Positions 1-5,193 of a stretch of DNA of 5,193 bases are shown here, piece after piece. Numbering within the stretch: the first letter of the stretch is position 1; the number at the start of each line of letters is the position of its first letter. The notes under the pieces were generated by a model, which worked only from the letters and a program-made list of their open reading frames with translations, did not search any database and was not told the DNA's origin. Both the position numbers and the translations under genes were made by a program. The DNA is taken from IMG/VR virus record IMGVR_UViG_2897358383_000001, positions 1-5,193 of that record; one strand, 5' to 3'. The DNA is from a virus (taxonomy: Duplodnaviria; Heunggongvirae; Uroviricota; Caudoviricetes).

Positions 1-1
1 C

Positions 2-328
2 CCAACGTTAAAATTACCTGATTTACGCGGTGAGTTTATCCGTGGTTGGGATGATGGGCGAGGTGTGGATGCGGGAAGGGTCATCTTAAGCATACAGGGG
101 TGGTTAACAGGAAGTCATTATCATAATATTCGGTCATGGGACGCGTGGGATAACACGGTATTGGTGCCAAATGACAGAGGGGGGGATAGCCTGTTGTCGA
201 CAGATAACGCCGTCCAAGAAGGAGCGATTAATGGTAAATTTACCAGTCAATACAGAACGGAGTTATCTGGGGGGAATGAAACCCGCCCACGTAACATTGC
301 CTTCAATTATATTGTGAGAGCAGCATAA
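2..328 (+). CDS. Tail-fibre protein, C-terminal variable (receptor-binding) cassette A; 5' end lies upstream of the window
   Basis: Frame is open from position 2 to TAA at 326-328 (the GTG at 65 in the ORF track is internal). Translation PTLKLPDLRGEFIRGWDDGRGVDAGR...ETRPRNIAFNYIVRAA carries the Mu S / P1 S-type motif and the same C-terminal 16-mer as the - strand cassettes. Its stop overlaps the next start (TAATG). Confidence 0.8.
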   Translation, partial: PTLKLPDLRGEFIRGWDDGRGVDAGRVILSIQGWLTGSHYHNIRSWDAWDNTVLVPNDRGGDSLLSTDNAVQEGAINGKFTSQYRTELSGGNETRPRNIAFNYIVRAA

Positions 329-938
329 TGGATAATGCGATATTAAATAGCGAACTTATAGCCATACAGGCAGGAAACATTATCGTTTATAACTATGATG
401 GTGGTAATCGGGAATATATTTCTGCATCAACTGAATATCTTGCTGTTGGCGTTGGTATTCCGGCACATTCTTGTTTGGATGCTCCAGGCTCACATAAAGC
501 AGGTTATGCGATTCTCCGTTCAGAGGATTTAAGTTCATGGGAGTATGTGCCAGATCATCGTGGCGAAACTGTCTATAGCATTGACACAGGGAATCCCGAA
601 GAAATCACGGTGTTGGGTGACTATCCGGAAAATACAACCACTATCGCCCGCTAACACCATACGACAAATGGGATGGAGAGAAATGGGTGGTTGATACTGA
701 GGCTCAACATAGTGGCAGCTGTAGAGGCAGCAGAAACAAAACGTCAGTCATTGATTGATACTGCGATGGATTCCATTAGTCTGATTCAGTTGAAATTACG
801 GGCTGGACGGAAGTTGACGCAGGCAGAAACCACCAGCTTAACTCCGTGCTAGATTATATAGACGAGCTGAACGCGATGGATTTAACCACGGCACCAGATC
901 TCAACTGGCCTGAAAAACAACTTTCTACAGCCAGTTGA
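328..938 (+). pseudogene. Tail-fibre assembly chaperone (Tfa/U-like), reading frame interrupted at least three times
   Basis: ATG at 328 overlaps the cassette A stop. Frame 1 (328-654) gives MDNAILNSELIAIQAGN...ENTTTIAR*. The protein then continues in frame 3 (657-~710, PYDKWDGEKWVVDTEAQH), frame 1 (~709-852, VAAVEAAETKRQSLIDTAMDSISLIQLKLRAGRKLTQAETTSL) and frame 3 (849-938, LDYIDELNAMDLTTAPDLNWPEKQLSTAS*). The C-terminal TAPD(I/L)xWP motif is typical of phage tail-fibre assembly proteins. Breaks coincide with short homopolymers. Confidence 0.55.
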
Positions 939-948
939 TATAATTAAT

Positions 949-989
949 CCGCCCTCACAATATAATTAAATGCAATATTACGAGGGCGG
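949..989. other. Imperfect hairpin (CCGCCCTC..AATAT / ATATT..GAGGGCGG) between the convergent chaperone gene and cassette B; possible bidirectional terminator
   Basis: 8-bp GC-rich stem 949-956/982-989 with an inner 5-bp AT stem 959-963/975-979 and an 11-nt loop. It lies inside the sequence encoding the cassette B C-terminus (RPRNIAFNYIVRA) and is followed by only a short T-run (GTTTCT). Confidence 0.25.
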
Positions 990-1243
990 GTTTCTAAGCC
1001 AGCAGTACCTAAATTAGCTACGGACTGTTTATATGTTTTAAAGTTCCATAATTAGGGGCTGGCAATCCTGCATCGCTTGTGTTCCCCCATCTGATAACTC
1101 CCGTATTACCACTAGTAGCCCATGCCTCGTCAAAGTAGAAATTAATTGAGCTGTCAGTTGCTACGGTTGATTTTGACGGTAATCCGTGAGCATGATCTCC
1201 GTTGCATATCCTTGCTCGCTTAAATAGAGCGACCTGGATCAAT

Positions 1244-1447
1244 CCCGCGCCCGTCATCCCAGCCACGAATGAACTCACCACGTAAATCAGGCAATTTATT
1301 GTCGGGTTAAGCCTTTGCCAGATTTGGGTACTTTTCAGAAGAAAATGCTGCACCATTGCATTTCAGCCACCCCGTTGGAGGTGTGGCTGAGGGCCACGGA
1401 ACAGGCACACCAACAGGCAGTGCAGAGCCTTCCCCAAACCAACGTTT
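1244..1447. repeat. Direct repeat copy 1 (5' module of cassette B including crossover site)
   Basis: Aligns with 1731-1934. About 98% identical over the site-proximal ~140 bp (1310-1447 vs 1796-1934: three substitutions plus a 1-nt C-run difference), about 75% over the distal ~65 bp. Confidence 0.85.
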
Positions 1448-1454
1448 TTATGCC
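1430..1454. other. Candidate invertase crossover site (hix/gix/cix-like), copy at head of cassette B
   Basis: TTCCCCAAACC-AA-CGTTTTTATGCC. The core AAACC-AA-CGTTT resembles the AAACC-NN-GGTTT core of Hin/Gin/Cin sites; the left half is 11 nt rather than 12. Confidence 0.4.
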
Positions 1455-1924
1455 GCCCTTACGATGTAATTAAATGCGATATTTCGTGGACGGGTTTCAC
1501 TCCCGCCAGTATTACCGATACTCCCTCGTGAATGAAGTGTCGGTGATGGGATCAGACTCCCTCCTGTATTTGTGGCATCAAGTCCCCATCCTTGTGTGTA
1601 TGTTTTTTTGAAAATTGTCGCCAGCTCCCATTCATCTTTTGTGTCGTAACCATCATTGGCTACAACAATATGTCGATGCTTTTCCAGCATTCCTGTCTGA
1701 ATGCTCAATAAAGCACGTCCCGCATCCACCCCGCGCCCATCATCCCAGCCGCGAATAAATTCTCCCCGTAAATCCGGTAATTTATTGGTGGGATAAGCCT
1801 TTGCCAGATTTGGGTACTTTTCAGAAGAAAATGCTGCACCATTGCATTTCAGCCACCCCGTTGGAGGTGTGGCTGAGGGCCACGGAACAGGTACGCCAAC
1901 AGGCAATGCAGAGCCTTCCCCCAA
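1448..1924 (-). CDS. Tail-fibre variable cassette C (silent orientation, promoterless; expressed only when fused to the constant part by inversion)
   Basis: Intact 158-codon frame ...LGEGSALPVGVPVPWPSATPPTGWLKCNGAAFSSEKYPNLAKAYPTNKLPDLRGEFIRGWDDGRGVDAGRALLSIQ...ETRPRNIAFNYIVRAA*. The apparent start is a TTG immediately preceded by an in-frame TAA (1934-1936) and sits inside the crossover site, so there is no independent start. Confidence 0.75.
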   Translation of the reverse strand: MGEGSALPVGVPVPWPSATPPTGWLKCNGAAFSSEKYPNLAKAYPTNKLPDLRGEFIRGWDDGRGVDAGRALLSIQTGMLEKHRHIVVANDGYDTKDEWELATIFKKTYTQGWGLDATNTGGSLIPSPTLHSRGSIGNTGGSETRPRNIAFNYIVRAA

Positions 1925-1934
1925 ACCAACGTTT
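1731..1934. repeat. Direct repeat copy 2 (5' module of cassette C including crossover site)
   Basis: Partner of 1244-1447 in the same orientation. The diverged inverted counterpart of the distal part is at window positions 1-70 in cassette A. Confidence 0.85.
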
Positions 1935-1941
1935 TAGTCTT
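1916..1941. other. Candidate invertase crossover site (hix/gix/cix-like), outer site next to the invertase gene
   Basis: TTCCCCCAAACC-AA-CGTTTTAGTCTT, 26 bp. The left half matches the recalled gix left half TTCCTGTAAACC at 9 of 12 positions. It lies at the 5' boundary of cassette C, 55 bp upstream of the invertase ATG. Confidence 0.5.
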
Positions 1942-1995
1942 AATCCCTACCTATACCAACGATGTATTTTTAACTAAACAAAGAGGTTGTTTTTC

Positions 1996-2568
1996 ATGCA
2001 AATTGGCTACATTCGTGTGTCAACAAATGACCAAAACACAGATTTACAAAGAAATGCACTGAACTGCGCAGGATGTGAACTGATTTTTGAAGATAAAATA
2101 AGCGGAACAAAGTCAGCCAGACCAGGCTTGAAAAAGCTGCTCAGAACGTTATCAGAAGGAGATACGCTGGTTGTCTGGAAGCTGGATAGGCTTGGCAGAA
2201 GTATGAAACACCTTATCACGCTTATAGAGGAGTTGCGGGAAAAAGGTGTTAATTTCCGTAGTCTGACAGACAGTATTGACACATCAACACCCATGGGGCG
2301 TTTCTTTTTTCACGTCATGGGGGCTTTAGCAGAAATGGAACGTGAATTAATTGTTGAGAGAACACTGGCCGGACTGGCAGCTGCACGCGAACAGGGACGC
2401 ATTGGCGGACGTCGCCCGAAGTTGACAAAAGAACAACATGAGCAAATAGCGAGGTTGATCGAAAATGGCTACAGCAGGAAACAGTTGGCAATTATTTACG
2501 ATATCGGTGTATCGACGATTTATCGTTATCATCCTGTAGAGAAGCGCCAAACTCAATCTGAGCTGTAA
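1996..2568 (+). CDS. Serine DNA invertase, Gin/Cin/Pin/Hin/Min family
   Basis: 190 aa from ATG 1996 (the track start at 1987 is an upstream TTG), with AAGAGG 9 nt upstream. MQIGYIRVSTNDQNTDLQRNAL... contains the catalytic-serine motif, the conserved VVWKLDRLGRSMKHL and GRFFFHVMGALAEMERELI blocks, and a C-terminal HTH (GYSRKQLAIIYDIGVSTIYRY). Confidence 0.95.
   Translation: MQIGYIRVSTNDQNTDLQRNALNCAGCELIFEDKISGTKSARPGLKKLLRTLSEGDTLVVWKLDRLGRSMKHLITLIEELREKGVNFRSLTDSIDTSTPMGRFFFHVMGALAEMERELIVERTLAGLAAAREQGRIGGRRPKLTKEQHEQIARLIENGYSRKQLAIIYDIGVSTIYRYHPVEKRQTQSEL
2017..2080. promoter_or_regulatory. Candidate recombinational enhancer (Fis-binding sites) inside the 5' end of the invertase gene
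   Basis: Position by analogy with hin/gin/cin enhancers. Near-palindrome GTCAACAAATGAC at 2019-2031; GCGCAGGATGTGAAC at 2066-2080 fits the degenerate Fis pattern G-N2-Y-R-N2-W-N2-Y-R-N2-C; centres are about 48 bp apart. Confidence 0.3.
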
Positions 2569-2688
2569 TTCTAATGCCGCGTCGGTGTAATTTATCTTGA
2601 TAGAATAGGTACATTTATCGCGCGGCACATCAATTCGATGTATCTAGCGCCTGCTGACCGCTAATGAAAACTGTCCTCGAAATGTTGT

Positions 2689-2707
2689 CCCTAGCCCGAG
2701 ACTAGGG
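2689..2707. other. Perfect 6-bp palindromic hairpin CCCTAG-N7-CTAGGG in the invertase-downstream intergenic region
   Basis: Stem 2689-2694/2702-2707, 7-nt loop, no T-tract after it. Could be a protein-binding palindrome or a weak terminator. Confidence 0.25.
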
Positions 2708-3003
2708 TATCACCTCTGGAAAGCATACGCAGAACCTTTTTTAACCCAGGGTGCCCAGCCTTTTTGCTGCTCGCCTTATTCGCAAAAATTAGCTCACATC
2801 CTGCGCTTTCAAGTGCTTTTCACTGCATAGCTGTGTTTTGTTCATTTGTCTATATGCGTACATAGCCTATTAGCATATTTTCTGCCCACTATCGTTATTT
2901 ATTGCAAGCTACAGGTTTTAATTAACAAAACCAGTGTGTGTGGAAATCACAAAGTGCATACCGTTCTCAGATGTTGTTCAACTTACTGTTGTATAGGTAA
3001 AAA

Positions 3004-3267
3004 ATGACATTTTATGTACATATCGTGATGTTATCCCTTCTTGGTGGGGTGTATTCGTATTTGAGTGGGCTATGTGAAAACCGTTACGAGTCTTCATGCA
3101 AGAAATTGCTGGCCGAATGTATTTCCGCCGTACTTGCTGGCTTTATTGGCATGTATCTCGCGGAATATAAGGATATGAATGAAAGCCTTCAGAGCTGCAT
3201 GGTTCTTATTTTCAGCGCCAATAGCAGGCTTATTATTGAAGGTTCCAAAAGTCGGTTGAATAGGTAA
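3004..3267 (+). CDS. Small membrane protein, holin-like paralogue of the following gene
   Basis: 87 aa, AGG 6 nt upstream of ATG. Two clear hydrophobic helices (FYVHIVMLSLLGGVYSYLSGL; LLAECISAVLAGFIGMYLA) and a charged C-terminus. Aligns with the 3342-3671 product in the pattern LLxxxGGxxxxL..R..S..LLxxxxExxxAVxAGxxxxYL...ASN. Confidence 0.45.
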   Translation: MTFYVHIVMLSLLGGVYSYLSGLCENRYESSCKKLLAECISAVLAGFIGMYLAEYKDMNESLQSCMVLIFSANSRLIIEGSKSRLNR

Positions 3268-3315
3268 GTCTCTTATGCAACATAACCGGTTGAGAAGTTA
3301 CTTTGCATACCATTA

Positions 3316-3335
3316 CCTCCTGACAACGTAGGAGG
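3316..3335 (+). promoter_or_regulatory. Hairpin occluding the Shine-Dalgarno sequence of the 3342 gene
   Basis: CCTCCT (3316-3321) pairs with AGGAGG (3330-3335) across an 8-nt loop; the paired GGAGG is the only ribosome-binding site, 6 nt before GTG 3342. Confidence 0.35.
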
Positions 3336-3341
3336 GAACTT

Positions 3342-3671
3342 GTGCTTGACACACAGGAATTAGCTCCAGTTGCTATTGCGCTCCTGCTTTCAGTAATTGG
3401 TGGGATAGGCACGTTCCTGATGGATGTCCGAGACGGTCGCCAGTCTGGCAATTTGTTGGGATTGGTTACGGAGATCTTTGTTGCAGTGACAGCTGGCGCG
3501 GTGGCGTACCTATTGGGGCAACACGAGGGCTGGGAGTTATCCATTACGTACTTAATGGTAACGATAGCCAGCAATAACGGTCATGAGGTGATTTCAGGGA
3601 TGAAACGAGTGAATATCGATAGCATTCTGAATGTTCTTACAAGTTTGGTGAAAAAGGGAGGCGGGAAATGA
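3342..3671 (+). CDS. Putative phage holin (small 2-3 TM membrane protein)
   Basis: 109 aa, GTG start with strong GGAGG. TM segments LAPVAIALLLSVIGGIGTFLM and LLGLVTEIFVAVTAGAVAYLLG, a weaker third, and a Lys-rich hydrophilic C-terminus (LVKKGGGK). Stop overlaps the next start (ATGA). Confidence 0.65.
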   Translation: MLDTQELAPVAIALLLSVIGGIGTFLMDVRDGRQSGNLLGLVTEIFVAVTAGAVAYLLGQHEGWELSITYLMVTIASNNGHEVISGMKRVNIDSILNVLTSLVKKGGGK

Positions 3672-4111
3672 TTGGCTGGGGTGTATGCGTTCTTGCGTTA
3701 GCCTTAGCCGATCGCTATTTGCTAAAACGCAAGGACATCACGCATTTAGAACTTGGTGATGTGGAAATTAAACCGGGTTTCATCCGGGTGCCGTTCAAAT
3801 ACCGGTCTAAATTCCCGTTTTTGCGCGGCGCAACGGTCAGATATTGGATCCGCGATGTTCAGAAGCCGACGACAGTGATTGAAGGCGAACAACGTTGTTT
3901 GACGTCGGCTGAACAGGGCGAAAACAGTGAATGGTTGTACATACCCACTGAATATATGGGTAAAGGAGAGCGACTGTGGCATTTCAACGTCATGGTTACG
4001 CATGGCGACTCGTTCATTAACCCGTTGTATCGGATTTTCCCTGTTACTCAGCAAATCCGCAGAAGTTACGTAATAAATCTCGCACAGGATGTGTCAGATG
4101 ACGAAAAATAA
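3668..4111 (+). CDS. Hypothetical protein with N-terminal membrane anchor, translationally coupled to the holin-like gene; possible holin regulator
   Basis: 147 aa, ATG 3668 overlaps the upstream stop, AGGGAGG 6 nt upstream. N-terminus IGWGVCVLALALA is hydrophobic, the rest hydrophilic. The function is inferred only from position after a holin. Confidence 0.6.
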   Translation: MIGWGVCVLALALADRYLLKRKDITHLELGDVEIKPGFIRVPFKYRSKFPFLRGATVRYWIRDVQKPTTVIEGEQRCLTSAEQGENSEWLYIPTEYMGKGERLWHFNVMVTHGDSFINPLYRIFPVTQQIRRSYVINLAQDVSDDEK

Positions 4112-4700
4112 GTATGCAACGGTCGATTTTGACCAGGTTAATGAAAAGGGGCTGAAATCCCTTATCGCGGCGATCAATAAAACCGGTGTTACGGTAATTG
4201 AGGTTGACTCCAGCAACCGCGCAACAACGAAAGATGGCGTTAAAGTTAAAACCGCAAAGCTGGTTCTTAACGACGGACAAATTCTTGCCATACAGGTAAA
4301 CGATACTGGCGATATATCGTCTGTGAGGCTGAATGGAAAAGCTATTCCTAACGCTCAATCGCCGGATATCAAGACGCTTGGTACCGTCATGGGGCAAGCG
4401 GCCCGCAAAAACTCCGCAAAATTCCAGAAATCACTGATCGCCAAAGCGAAACGTGTTGCCAATCCGGTAGACAAGAAACCGGCAGTAAAATCCAACTTTC
4501 AGCGCCTGCAAGAGGCAAAACAGCGGAATGCTCAGGTGGTTGCCGCTTATAAATCAGCGCAGAACTCGGTGTCTTTCAATCAACAGCAGATCACTGATTT
4601 GCGGGCGAAGCTGGATAAGGAGACAGGCCGACTCAATAACGAAAAGGCCCGAAATGGCGAACTCAAACGCCGTCTTAAGCAACTGAAAGCAGGAAATTAA
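4098..4700 (+). CDS. Hypothetical Lys-rich protein with C-terminal coiled-coil-like region
   Basis: ATG 4098 preferred over 4089 (AGGA 8 nt upstream); the start lies 14 nt inside the upstream gene. 200 aa, MTKNKYATVDF...; C-terminal third is rich in K/R/Q/E/A (QRLQEAKQRNAQVVAAYK...LRAKLDKETGRLNNEKARNGELKRRLKQLKAGN). Confidence 0.65.
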   Translation: MTKNKYATVDFDQVNEKGLKSLIAAINKTGVTVIEVDSSNRATTKDGVKVKTAKLVLNDGQILAIQVNDTGDISSVRLNGKAIPNAQSPDIKTLGTVMGQAARKNSAKFQKSLIAKAKRVANPVDKKPAVKSNFQRLQEAKQRNAQVVAAYKSAQNSVSFNQQQITDLRAKLDKETGRLNNEKARNGELKRRLKQLKAGN

Positions 4701-4701
4701 C

Positions 4702-5193
4702 ATGGAACAGTTCAATATCAATAAAGGGGTGACGATCAAGCCTGGGCTTGACGTGCTTCCCCCGCCAGTGACTGATGATGAATATCGCGCATTAATGGCC
4801 GGTGAGGACCGCTATCTGATGACGGAATCCAACACCCTGGAGGAAATCGAGGCTACGTTCTTCTATGACACGCCGATCCACTGGTGTGCTACGGATTTAC
4901 TGGAGGCGATTAGTTCTACTCGTTTGCAGTTACACCGGACCATGCAGGCATTTGTCCGGGCATTGAACCAGAAGCTGAATGGTACCGGAATCTCTGCGGG
5001 GAGTGATAAAACGGGGGATGTGGCCCAGAGCGGCGCGCGCGCGATCGGCGGTGCTGAAATTGGCCGGGCACGGAACGTTAACGGGCTGCCGGTCCTGCCA
5101 GCCATTATTCCGCTCAGTGATGGTCAGACTATCAGCATTCTGTTTCATAGCCCGACAGCGGAAAACCGGATCACCAATAGCGATACGCTGGTT
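4702..5193 (+). CDS. Hypothetical protein, 3'-truncated by the window (at least 164 codons)
   Basis: ATG 4702 is 1 nt after the upstream TAA with AGGAAA 5 nt upstream. Frame is open to the window end (MEQFNINKGVTIKPGLDVLPPPVTDDEYRALMAGEDRY...). It is absent from the ORF track only because no stop falls inside the window. Confidence 0.65.
   Translation, partial: MEQFNINKGVTIKPGLDVLPPPVTDDEYRALMAGEDRYLMTESNTLEEIEATFFYDTPIHWCATDLLEAISSTRLQLHRTMQAFVRALNQKLNGTGISAGSDKTGDVAQSGARAIGGAEIGRARNVNGLPVLPAIIPLSDGQTISILFHSPTAENRITNSDTLV

What the first reader, a model, noticed from the sequence alone, without database searches (positions are those of the whole stretch)
1..5193. Overall layout resembles a P1-family phage-plasmid but with a non-canonical cassette set
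A fibre inversion region, a Cin-like invertase, then holin-like genes and a late operon of unknown proteins recalls the cin-lyd-dar neighbourhood of P1. It differs from P1 in having three cassettes, a single broken chaperone gene and a duplicated holin-like gene. This may be an undescribed variant of the host-range switch or a decaying prophage copy.
Basis: inference. Interest (0 to 1): 0.5.

Follow-up and report, generated by a model that had tools for sequence, protein, structure and literature searches.

The report
P1-like plasmid with p15B-type Min switch
This is an ordinary piece of a common P1-like E. coli phage-plasmid carrying the multi-cassette "Min" tail-fibre switch first described on plasmid p15B around 1990; the "broken" chaperone gene is most likely a sequencing artefact.

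Summary
The P1-family layout is real. Window 2700-5193 is 94.4% identical to P1 (dead cin 5' remnant, lydC, lydA, lydB, hdf, darA'), and about 95-kb IncY E. coli plasmids match the whole window at 98-99%.

It is not an undescribed variant. Window 1-2700 is the right-hand end of the p15B-type Min multiple-inversion region. It holds short alternative tail-fibre 3' cassettes, each starting at a TTCCCCCAAACCAACGTTTT crossover site. It also holds one tail-fibre assembly gene and a Min-type serine invertase (72.6% aa to Cin, opposite orientation). The invertase is 189/190 identical to the pJIE250-3 enzyme, published as 98.5% identical to p15B Min.

- **"Three cassettes":** a truncation effect, because the array runs off the left edge. 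Relatives carry 2-10 crossover sites.
- **"Duplicated holin":** this is lydC plus lydA, which P1 also has.
- **"Unknown late operon":** this is lydB-hdf-darA behind an exact LPdar promoter.
- **"Broken chaperone":** real in this sequence. It comes from nine single-base indels clustered at 646-1432, which also break cassette B and one crossover site. None is seen in four aligned relatives, and eight of them are absent from the best matches among 5,426 complete E. coli genomes. The surrounding sequence is otherwise identical, so assembly error is the likeliest cause.

At least 145 PLSDB plasmids carry this invertase region. Already known; low interest.

The parts
1..328 (+). Cassette A: last 109 codons of an alternative tail-fibre C-terminus, cut by the window edge. 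The complete cassette is 152 codons in relatives and ends ...ETRPRNIAFNYIVRAA.
   Evidence: The translated window part is contained exactly in L001 7870-8328 (WP_071961623.1). The full cassette has a Pfam Collar domain (4.9e-15) and a weak short-tail-fibre receptor-binding-domain hit.
328..938 (+). Tail-fibre assembly (chaperone, U/Tfa-like) gene. Its ATG overlaps cassette A's stop. It is broken here by single-base indels at 646, 714 and 833.
   Evidence: The intact orthologue L001 8328-8939 matches Pfam Caudo_TAP at 3e-30. The window differs from it only by three indels and no substitutions.
944..1448 (-). Cassette B: an alternative tail-fibre C-terminus in silent orientation. It is broken here by six single-base indels at 1039, 1196, 1221, 1298, 1307 and 1432.
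   Evidence: three-frame translation. The intact orthologue is L004 7945-8442, 165 aa. The equivalent cassette in L001 has a Collar domain.
1429..1448 (+). Internal crossover (mix-type) site at the head of cassette B. It is one base short in the window compared with the sites found in all five relatives scanned.
1448..1935 (-). Cassette C: an intact alternative tail-fibre C-terminus (158 aa from the crossover site) in silent orientation.
   Evidence: (Collar 3e-15). The exact protein occurs on 210 contigs.
1916..1935 (+). Invertase-proximal crossover site TTCCCCCAAACCAACGTTTT, the boundary of the invertible region. It is the counterpart of P1 cixL.
   Evidence: The same site with the same flank (..AGTCTTAATC) lies next to the invertase gene in L001, L003, L004, L006 and L007.
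1996..2568 (+). Min-type serine DNA invertase, 190 aa.
   Evidence: Pfam Resolvase 2.1e-51 and HTH_7 3.4e-15. 72.6% aa identity to P1 Cin and 189/190 to the pJIE250-3 invertase. The exact sequence carries the UniRef name DNA-invertase Q05517_ECOLX.
2014..2085 (+). Homologue of the recombinational enhancer, inside the 5' end of the invertase gene.
   Evidence: 60 of 73 aligned positions match the annotated P1 cin enhancer. Function is inferred from homology only.
2703..2876 (-). Dead 5' remnant of a cin gene (about the first 58 codons). It has in-frame stops, including one at codon 9 where Cin has the catalytic serine. The P1 cin promoter region follows up to about 2990.
   Evidence: Alignment to P1 L002 8001-8310; sequence read. 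P1's GenBank notes place the same remnant in p15B at nt 7147-7408.
2787..2858 (-). Second copy of the enhancer homologue, inside the cin remnant.
   Evidence: 62 of 72 positions match the P1 cin enhancer.
3004..3267 (+). lydC, the holin-like LydA paralogue. This is a divergent allele, 57% aa identical to P1 LydC.
   Evidence: Pfam Phage_holin_3_3 1.2e-9.
3295..3313 (+). Late promoter LPdar (-22 box and -10).
   Evidence: Exact 19-nt match to the annotated P1 LPdar.
3342..3671 (+). lydA holin.
   Evidence: 100% aa identity to P1 LydA. Pfam Phage_holin_3_3.
3668..4111 (+). lydB, the LydA-holin antagonist.
   Evidence: Pfam LydB 8e-104. 98.6% aa identity to P1.
4089..4700 (+). hdf, the DarA-related antirestriction (head) protein gene.
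   Evidence: Pfam DarA_N 1.5e-21. 98.5% aa identity to P1 Hdf.
4702..5193 (+). darA, first 164 codons, cut by the window edge.
   Evidence: Pfam DarA_N 2e-22. 99.4% aa identity to P1 DarA.

Best explanation
The window is a slice of a P1-like (Punavirus, IncY-type) E. coli phage-plasmid. It carries the p15B-type Min multiple-inversion host-range switch in place of P1's two-state Cin/C-segment.

Shown:
- A string of about 460-500-bp cassettes each encodes an alternative tail-fibre C-terminus. Each has about 67 conserved N-terminal residues with a Collar domain, about 80 variable residues, and a conserved ...ETRPRNIAFNYIVRAA end.
- Each cassette begins at a crossover site, CCTTCCCCCAAACC-AA-CGTTTT.
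- One cassette (A) is followed by a tail-fibre assembly gene.
- A Min-type serine invertase gene sits just outside the last site.

Inferred from the Hin/Gin/Cin/Pin/Min family:
- The invertase, helped by Fis bound at an enhancer inside its own 5' coding region, inverts DNA between oppositely oriented sites.
- Successive inversions bring different cassettes in frame behind the constant part of the tail-fibre gene S, which lies off the window to the left. This changes receptor specificity.

Downstream are a dead cin 5' remnant, lydC, then the late LPdar operon lydA-lydB-hdf-darA (lysis control and antirestriction head proteins), essentially as in P1.

The broken chaperone gene, cassette B and internal crossover site are most probably base-calling or assembly errors. 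They could have arisen in an invertible, repeat-rich stretch where mixed isomers degrade the consensus. Genuine decay is less likely.
For: **P1 backbone**
- 2700-5193 is 94.4% identical to P1. LydA, LydB, Hdf and DarA are 98.5-100% identical to P1 at the protein level, and LPdar is exact.
- Full-length matches at 98-99% are to 92-99-kb plasmids, and the one typed by PLSDB is IncY.

**Min type**
- The invertase is 72.6% identical to Cin and 189/190 to pJIE250-3's enzyme. That enzyme is published as 98.5% identical to p15B Min (PMC6906374).
- A published plasmid with the same gene order as the window has a 5-kb invertible region reported as 99% identical to the p15B min region (PMC5786510).
- The p15B coordinates quoted in P1's GenBank notes (6463-6533, 7147-7408, 7483-7638, 7728-8294) map onto the window at a near-constant offset of about 4443-4446.

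**Crossover sites**
- Two sites in the window against 0 expected by chance. There are 8, 10, 2 and 9 in relatives L001, L003, L004 and L007.
- They fall into three flank classes that parallel P1 cixL and cixR.

**Evidence that the switch flips**
- Window 11-1498 is inverted relative to the invertase gene in L007. The inverted block lies between L007's crossover sites at 3045-3064 and 4620-4639.

**Prevalence**
- 145 plasmids carry the invertase region at 95% or better, against 208 carrying P1-type cin at 95% or better.

**Indels as artefact**
- All nine indels lie in 646-1432 and none in the other 4.4 kb. If placed uniformly, the chance is about (787/5193)^9, roughly 4e-8 (my arithmetic).
- Against L004, positions 1-1448 have 9 indels and 4 substitutions, while 1724-5193 has 0 indels and 18 substitutions.
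- The twelve listed top hits among 5,426 complete E. coli genomes are 98.9% identical over 600-1330. This equals the 8 indels in that stretch with no substitutions.
Against: - The constant part of gene S, the oppositely oriented partner sites, and the replication and partition genes lie outside the window. The window alone therefore shows only two same-orientation sites.
- The p15B sequence X62121 itself could not be retrieved. Identity to Min rests on published percentages for near-identical plasmids and on GenBank notes.
- Enhancer function and Fis dependence are inferred from 82% sequence similarity only.
- No reads are available, so the artefact explanation for the indels is an inference. 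Some of the indels are not in homopolymer runs.
Confidence: 0.93

Rival explanations
1. A genuinely decaying switch. The nine indels are real mutations. This copy has lost its chaperone, one cassette and one crossover site, so the phage-plasmid is drifting towards a frozen host range or a pure plasmid.
For: - Frameshifts hit three functional parts in a row.
- The locus already holds a dead cin remnant.
- Degenerate relatives exist. pJIE250-3 keeps only same-orientation sites and lacks the other tail-fibre modules. L003 has an IS21-family insertion in the array.
Against: - Nine single-base indels with zero substitutions in an otherwise identical 1.39 kb is not how pseudogenes usually decay.
- No other record shares any of the indels.
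- min, lydC, lydA, lydB, hdf and darA are all intact.
- Several of the indels shorten or extend short homopolymer runs.
Confidence: 0.17
2. An undescribed variant of the P1 host-range switch: a new cassette set and architecture distinct from both Cin/C-segment and Min.
For: - Relatives carry 8-10 crossover sites. From memory, p15B was described with six.
- Only one cassette has an adjacent chaperone gene.
Against: - The invertase, the sites, the cin remnant and the gene order all match published Min-type plasmids.
- More than 145 plasmids share the invertase region.
- Cassette count varies among otherwise near-identical relatives, which is ordinary copy-number variation of a known array.
Confidence: 0.04
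3. A chromosomal defective prophage with a Pin, Gin or Hin-type switch (e14-, Mu- or P2-like) rather than a P1-like plasmid.
For: - The cassette N-termini and the chaperone gene have 76-87% matches in lambdoid, SfIV-like and P2-like phages and on many E. coli chromosomes.
Against: - Those matches cover only short pieces.
- The contiguous lydC-darA block is P1-specific at 94-99%, and every match covering at least 76% of the window is a plasmid or a P1-like phage record.
Confidence: 0.02

Closest known systems
Min multiple DNA inversion system of E. coli 15T- plasmid p15B (Iida et al. 1990 Mol Microbiol 4:991; Sandmeier et al. 1990 PNAS 87:1109; 1991 NAR 19:5831; 1992 J Bacteriol 174:3936). The references appear in the lists; the full texts were not held.
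   Same: - A Min-type invertase oriented towards lyd.
- Several short tail-fibre 3' cassettes, each headed by a crossover site.
- A single U/Tfa-like gene inside the segment.
- A cin 5' remnant between the invertase gene and lydC, then lydC-lydA.
- The window is collinear with p15B coordinates at an offset of about 4443.
   Different: - Nothing in kind.
- The closest complete relatives have more sites (8-10) than the six I recall for p15B.
- This copy has nine private single-base indels.
Cin/C-segment switch of phage P1 (and P7)
   Same: - The same backbone and position in the genome.
- The same family of serine invertase (72.6% aa identity).
- A homologous crossover core (..AAACCAAGGTTT.. against ..AAACCAACGTTT..) and a homologous enhancer.
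- The same downstream lyd-dar operon.
   Different: - P1 has two sites, two long Sv/Sv' cassettes of about 1.6 kb, and two chaperone genes (U and U').
- cin is transcribed away from lydC.
- Here there are many short cassettes, one chaperone gene and an invertase of opposite orientation. P1's cin survives only as a dead stub.
Published Min-type P1/P7-like plasmids: pJIE250-3 (Venturini 2019, PMC6906374) and pMCR_SCKP-LL83 (Zhou 2018, PMC5786510)
   Same: - 99.4% nucleotide identity to pJIE250-3 over 1315-5193.
- The same gene order as listed for pMCR_SCKP-LL83: cassettes, tfaE, two cassettes, pin, lyd, darA.
   Different: - pJIE250-3 has lost most of the array.
- The window keeps the chaperone gene and cassettes A and B, but with frameshifts.
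R64 shufflon (Rci tyrosine recombinase)
   Same: It works alike: multiple inversions shuffle alternative C-terminal cassettes of an adhesin gene.
   Different: - A different recombinase family (tyrosine rather than serine).
- Different sites.
- A different target gene (pilV).
- Not a homologue.

Membership tests
P1-like phage-plasmid (Punavirus / IncY) | Gene order: S variable region, invertase, lydC, lydA, lydB, hdf, darA. | tested here: met
   The invertase orientation differs from P1 but is the same as in Min-type members.
P1-like phage-plasmid (Punavirus / IncY) | High nucleotide identity to P1 across backbone genes, and the Lpa-type late promoter LPdar. | tested here: met
   94.4% identity over 2700-5193. 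LPdar is exact at 3295-3313.
P1-like phage-plasmid (Punavirus / IncY) | Plasmid replication and partition genes (repA, parAB) and P1 morphogenesis genes on the same replicon. | not testable with these tools
   These lie outside the 5.2-kb window. The closest full-length relatives are 92-99-kb circular plasmids with P1 tail and baseplate genes upstream, and L001 is typed IncY.
Din family of serine DNA invertases (Hin/Gin/Cin/Pin/Min) | Small serine recombinase: N-terminal resolvase catalytic domain with the active-site serine, plus a C-terminal HTH. | tested here: met
   Resolvase 2.1e-51 and HTH_7 3.4e-15. The motif YIRVSTNDQ aligns with Cin YVRVSTNEQ.
Din family of serine DNA invertases (Hin/Gin/Cin/Pin/Min) | About 26-bp crossover sites with a conserved core around a central AA, present in inverted orientation. 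| tested here: inconclusive
   Two sites with the core lie in the window, but both have the same orientation. The oppositely oriented partners lie left of the window. They are present in relatives L001, L003, L004 and L007.
Din family of serine DNA invertases (Hin/Gin/Cin/Pin/Min) | A Fis-dependent recombinational enhancer within the 5' part of the invertase gene. | tested here: inconclusive
   A 72-bp homologue of the annotated P1 cin enhancer lies at 2014-2085, with 60 of 73 positions matching. Fis binding and function cannot be tested here.
Min multiple-inversion system (p15B type) | An invertase that is Min rather than Cin. | tested here: met
   The test is indirect. The invertase is 189/190 identical to the pJIE250-3 enzyme, which is published as 98.5% identical to Min of X62121. 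X62121 itself was not retrievable.
Min multiple-inversion system (p15B type) | More than two crossover sites, delimiting overlapping invertible segments that carry several alternative 3' ends of one tail-fibre gene. | tested here: met
   The window has three cassettes and two sites, with the site of cassette A just off the edge. Relatives collinear with the window have 8-10 sites.
Min multiple-inversion system (p15B type) | Different inversion isomers exist, with breakpoints at the sites. | tested here: met
   Window 11-1498 is inverted in L007, and the block lies between L007's sites at 3045-3064 and 4620-4639. The chaperone block is + in L001, L003 and L004 and - in L007. This compares plasmids; it does not show flipping within the source culture.

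The most novel reading that the evidence does not exclude
The source element, like its closest complete relatives, may carry an expanded Min array. That would mean 8-10 short receptor-binding cassettes against the six crossover sites I recall for p15B, with only one cassette linked to a tail-fibre assembly gene. If so, most of these tips either fold without a dedicated chaperone or share one chaperone whatever its orientation. That would be a larger and differently organised host-range repertoire than has been analysed experimentally.
Probability: 0.2. Interest if true: 0.3.

Novelty: already known. Interest (0 to 1): 0.08.

Why it matters
It matters little for discovery. The Min-type switch has been known since 1990 and is present in a large share of sequenced P1-like plasmids.

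There are two practical points:
- **Annotation.** The "recombinase family protein" and "phage tail protein" strings in these plasmids are a Min invertase and its silent tail-fibre cassettes. The stub between min and lydC is a dead cin.
- **Quality control.** Clustered single-base indels inside an invertible, repeat-rich segment should be treated as probable assembly errors before calling pseudogenes or "decay".

These arrays could still be a useful natural library of receptor-binding tips for P1-based delivery vectors.

Tried and rejected
- **p15B record X62121.** I tried to fetch it for a direct alignment. It is not in the collections.
- **Original papers.** I tried the p15B papers, the P1 genome paper and Johnson's 2015 review (PMC53420, PMC206102, PMC523184, PMC4384473). 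None is held. What I state about p15B's six sites and 3.5-kb segment is therefore from memory of those papers.
- **RNA genes.** Rfam, tRNA and tmRNA scans of the window found nothing.
- **Promoters and terminators.** The consensus scan of 1900-3400 gave nothing beyond chance for promoters, and a few weak terminator-like hairpins that I did not interpret.
- **DGR or phase-variable slippage as the source of the indels.** Rejected. The changes are indels rather than A-directed substitutions, and the runs involved are only 3-5 nt long.
- **A chromosomal e14/Mu/P2-type switch.** Rejected, because only short mosaic pieces match such phages.
- **Large searches not run.** I did not run the large protein-homology or structure searches, because exact-sequence look-ups and Pfam already identified every gene.

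Full report
**What is in the window.**
ORF listing, repeat finding and Pfam scans give this map:
- Cassette A (1-328, +): the last 109 codons of a tail-fibre C-terminal cassette.
- Tail-fibre assembly gene (328-938, +): its frame is broken.
- Cassettes B (944-1448) and C (1448-1935): two further cassettes on the minus strand.
- Serine invertase gene (1996-2568, +): Resolvase 2e-51, HTH_7 3e-15.
- A 430-bp spacer.
- Two LydA-family holin genes (3004-3267 and 3342-3671).
- LydB (3668-4111; Pfam LydB 8e-104).
- A DarA_N-domain protein (4089-4700) and the first 164 codons of a second one (4702-5193).

The repeat families D1 and D2 and the inverted repeats I1-I4 are the conserved heads and tails of the cassettes. 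The three cassettes share their first 67 or so residues (LGEGSALPVGVPVPWPS..., with a Collar domain) and their last 16 or so (ETRPRNIAFNYIVRAA). They differ in an 80-residue middle, giving about 60% pairwise identity.

**Where it comes from.**
- Against phage records, P1, P7, SJ46, RCS47 and other Punavirus genomes match 2700-5193 at 94-98%. Only two P1-like isolates also match from about 1230 leftwards.
- Against PLSDB, 613 plasmids match, nearly all non-mobilisable E. coli plasmids. Eleven of these cover at least 80% of the window in one place, at 98-99%.
- Sixteen complete E. coli genomes hold such a copy.
- The annotated neighbourhoods of the best hits put P1 baseplate, tail-tube, R and S genes upstream and darA-ddrA-ddrB-hxr downstream. 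These are NZ_CP023961 (typed IncY), NZ_AP040955 and NZ_CP069092.
- At the protein level LydA is 100%, LydB 98.6%, Hdf 98.5% and the DarA N-terminus 99.4% identical to P1. The 19-nt late promoter LPdar is present exactly at 3295-3313.

P1's own annotation reads S, U, U', Sv', cin, lydC, lydA, lydB, hdf, darA.

**What the "non-canonical" part is.**
Left of 2700 the window does not match P1. The invertase is only 72.6% identical to Cin and points towards lyd, whereas cin points away.

Between the invertase gene and lydC lies the first 58 or so codons of a cin gene on the minus strand (2703-2876), followed by the P1 cin promoter region. It has stop codons, including one at codon 9 where Cin has its catalytic serine.

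This is the arrangement of plasmid p15B. Four lines of evidence support that:
- P1's GenBank notes record p15B similarity at p15B nt 6463-6533 (enhancer), 7147-7408 (cin 5' end), 7483-7638 (lydC) and 7728-8294 (lydA). These map onto the window at a near-constant offset of about 4443-4446.
- The invertase is 189/190 identical to that of pJIE250-3. Venturini et al. report that enzyme as 98.5% identical to Min of p15B and as "in reverse orientation" to cin (PMC6906374).
- Zhou et al. describe pMCR_SCKP-LL83, whose listed gene order is the window's: cassettes, tfaE, two cassettes, pin, lyd, darA. They report its 5-kb invertible region as 99% identical to the p15B min region (PMC5786510).
- The exact invertase sequence carries the UniRef name DNA-invertase Q05517_ECOLX, and the exact LydA sequence Q47424_ECOLX.

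I could not retrieve X62121 itself or the original papers. The identification is therefore indirect, but the lines agree.

**Crossover sites and evidence that the switch flips.**
- Each cassette starts at TTCCCCCAAACCAACGTTTT. The window has two such sites (1429-1448 and 1916-1935) against 0 expected by chance.
- Relatives have 8 (L001), 10 (L003), 2 (L004) and 9 (L007) sites.
- Aligned, the sites share CCTTCCCCCAAACC-AA-C/GGT. They fall into three classes by right-hand flank: next to the constant S part, internal (the flank is the stop codon of the preceding cassette), and next to the invertase gene. This parallels P1 cixL and cixR, which share TTCTCTTAAACC-AA-GGT.
- A 72-bp homologue of the annotated cin enhancer lies in the invertase gene's 5' end (2014-2085, 60 of 73 positions). 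A second lies in the cin remnant (2787-2858, 62 of 72).
- Window 11-1498 (cassette A, chaperone gene and cassette B) is found inverted relative to the invertase gene in NZ_MG288678. There the block lies between that plasmid's sites at 3045-3064 and 4620-4639. Natural isomers with breakpoints at the sites therefore exist.

The mechanism is inferred from the Din invertase family and was not tested here. It comprises Fis-enhancer-dependent inversion between oppositely oriented sites, and successive inversions that place different cassettes behind the constant S part.

- **"Three cassettes."** Three are visible, but the array runs off the left edge. Cassette A itself starts about 130 nt before base 1, and collinear relatives have five to seven more cassettes upstream.
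- **"Duplicated holin-like gene."** This is lydC plus lydA, present in P1 and annotated there as paralogues. It is not a difference. The lydC allele here is divergent (57% aa identity to P1 LydC), in line with lydC-cin-S being a known variable region of P1-like plasmids (PMC9603915).
- **"A single broken chaperone gene."** A single chaperone gene is normal for this type of region. The breakage is real in this sequence and needs its own explanation, given next.

**The breakage.**
- Against each of three relatives aligned base by base, the window carries the same nine single-base indels, at 646, 714, 833, 1039, 1196, 1221, about 1298, 1307 and about 1432. Seven are deletions and two are insertions. 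A fourth relative, L007, also shows nine gaps across 11-1498.
- Three break the chaperone gene, five break cassette B, and one removes a base from the internal crossover site.
- There are no indels anywhere else in the window.
- Against NZ_CP069092, positions 1-1390 have no substitutions at all. Positions 1724-5193 have 18 substitutions and no indels.
- The twelve listed top matches among 5,426 complete E. coli genomes are 98.9% identical over 600-1330. That equals the eight indels in that stretch with no substitutions, so none of them shares the indels.
- Nine of nine indels falling in 15% of the window has a chance of about 4e-8 if they were placed uniformly (my arithmetic).
- Several indels shorten or lengthen short homopolymer runs.

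This pattern is what uncorrected long-read or mixed-isomer consensus errors look like. It is not what pseudogene decay looks like. I put about 0.75-0.8 on artefact and about 0.17 on real lesions. Only the reads can decide.

**How common it is.**
The invertase region (1940-2700) is found at 95% identity or better in 145 PLSDB plasmids, and at 90% or better in 161. The P1-specific part of cin is found at 95% or better in 208. The Min type is thus roughly 40% of P1-like plasmids with a recognisable invertase.

**Verdict.**
The suggested novelty is not there. This is the known p15B-type Min multiple-inversion region in a common P1-like E. coli phage-plasmid, with probable sequencing errors in one patch. 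Novelty: already known. Interest: low.

The only mildly open points concern the family, not this window. Arrays are larger than the six sites recalled for p15B, only one cassette has a chaperone gene, and there are two enhancer copies.

Noticed in passing
window 646-1432: Nine single-base indels are confined to a 790-bp patch inside the invertible segment, and the last one lies within the crossover site itself. No public relative examined shares them. The pattern suggests consensus errors where inversion isomers or repeats were mixed during assembly.
   Followed up: yes
window 2014-2085 and 2787-2858: There are two homologues of the cin recombinational enhancer about 770 bp apart. One lies in the live min gene and one in the dead cin stub. 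I did not examine whether the second still binds Fis or affects inversion.
   Followed up: partly
window 3004-3267 versus 3342-3671: There is a sharp mosaic boundary. LydC is only 57% identical to P1 LydC, while LydA, 75 bp downstream, is 100% identical. The module exchanged relative to P1 therefore seems to run from the variable part of S through min, the cin stub and lydC, ending just before LPdar.
   Followed up: partly
L001 8328-8939; L003 7328-7939; L004 7328-7939; L007 3559-4170: In every relative examined, the single tail-fibre assembly gene directly follows the A-type cassette and flips with it. The other five to eight cassettes have no adjacent chaperone gene. How their products fold when the chaperone gene is in antisense orientation is unclear.
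   Followed up: no
L003 3068-5319 (NZ_AP040955): An IS21-family element (ISEc10, istA and istB) is inserted inside the cassette array of the relative that matches the window best over its full length. That array has 10 crossover sites.
   Followed up: no
L005 (ON470615.2, phage vB_EcoM-673R5) 7271-7842 and 8940-9119: In this deposited phage genome the invertase is annotated as two fragments ("Hin2" and "Hin1"), LydB is truncated, and many tail-fibre genes are fragments. This suggests frameshift errors in that record too.
   Followed up: no
L006 4116-4135 and 4603-4622 (pJIE250-3): This published relative keeps only two crossover sites, both in the same orientation, next to a hok toxin gene. 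Its switch can no longer invert, which agrees with the authors' comment that functionality is probably impaired.
   Followed up: partly
window 1239-1447: The conserved N-terminal part of the cassettes is 86.7% identical to the side tail-fibre gene stf of phage HK97. The chaperone gene is about 80% identical to tfa genes of SfIV-like phages. This is the usual tail-fibre mosaicism across phage families.
   Followed up: no
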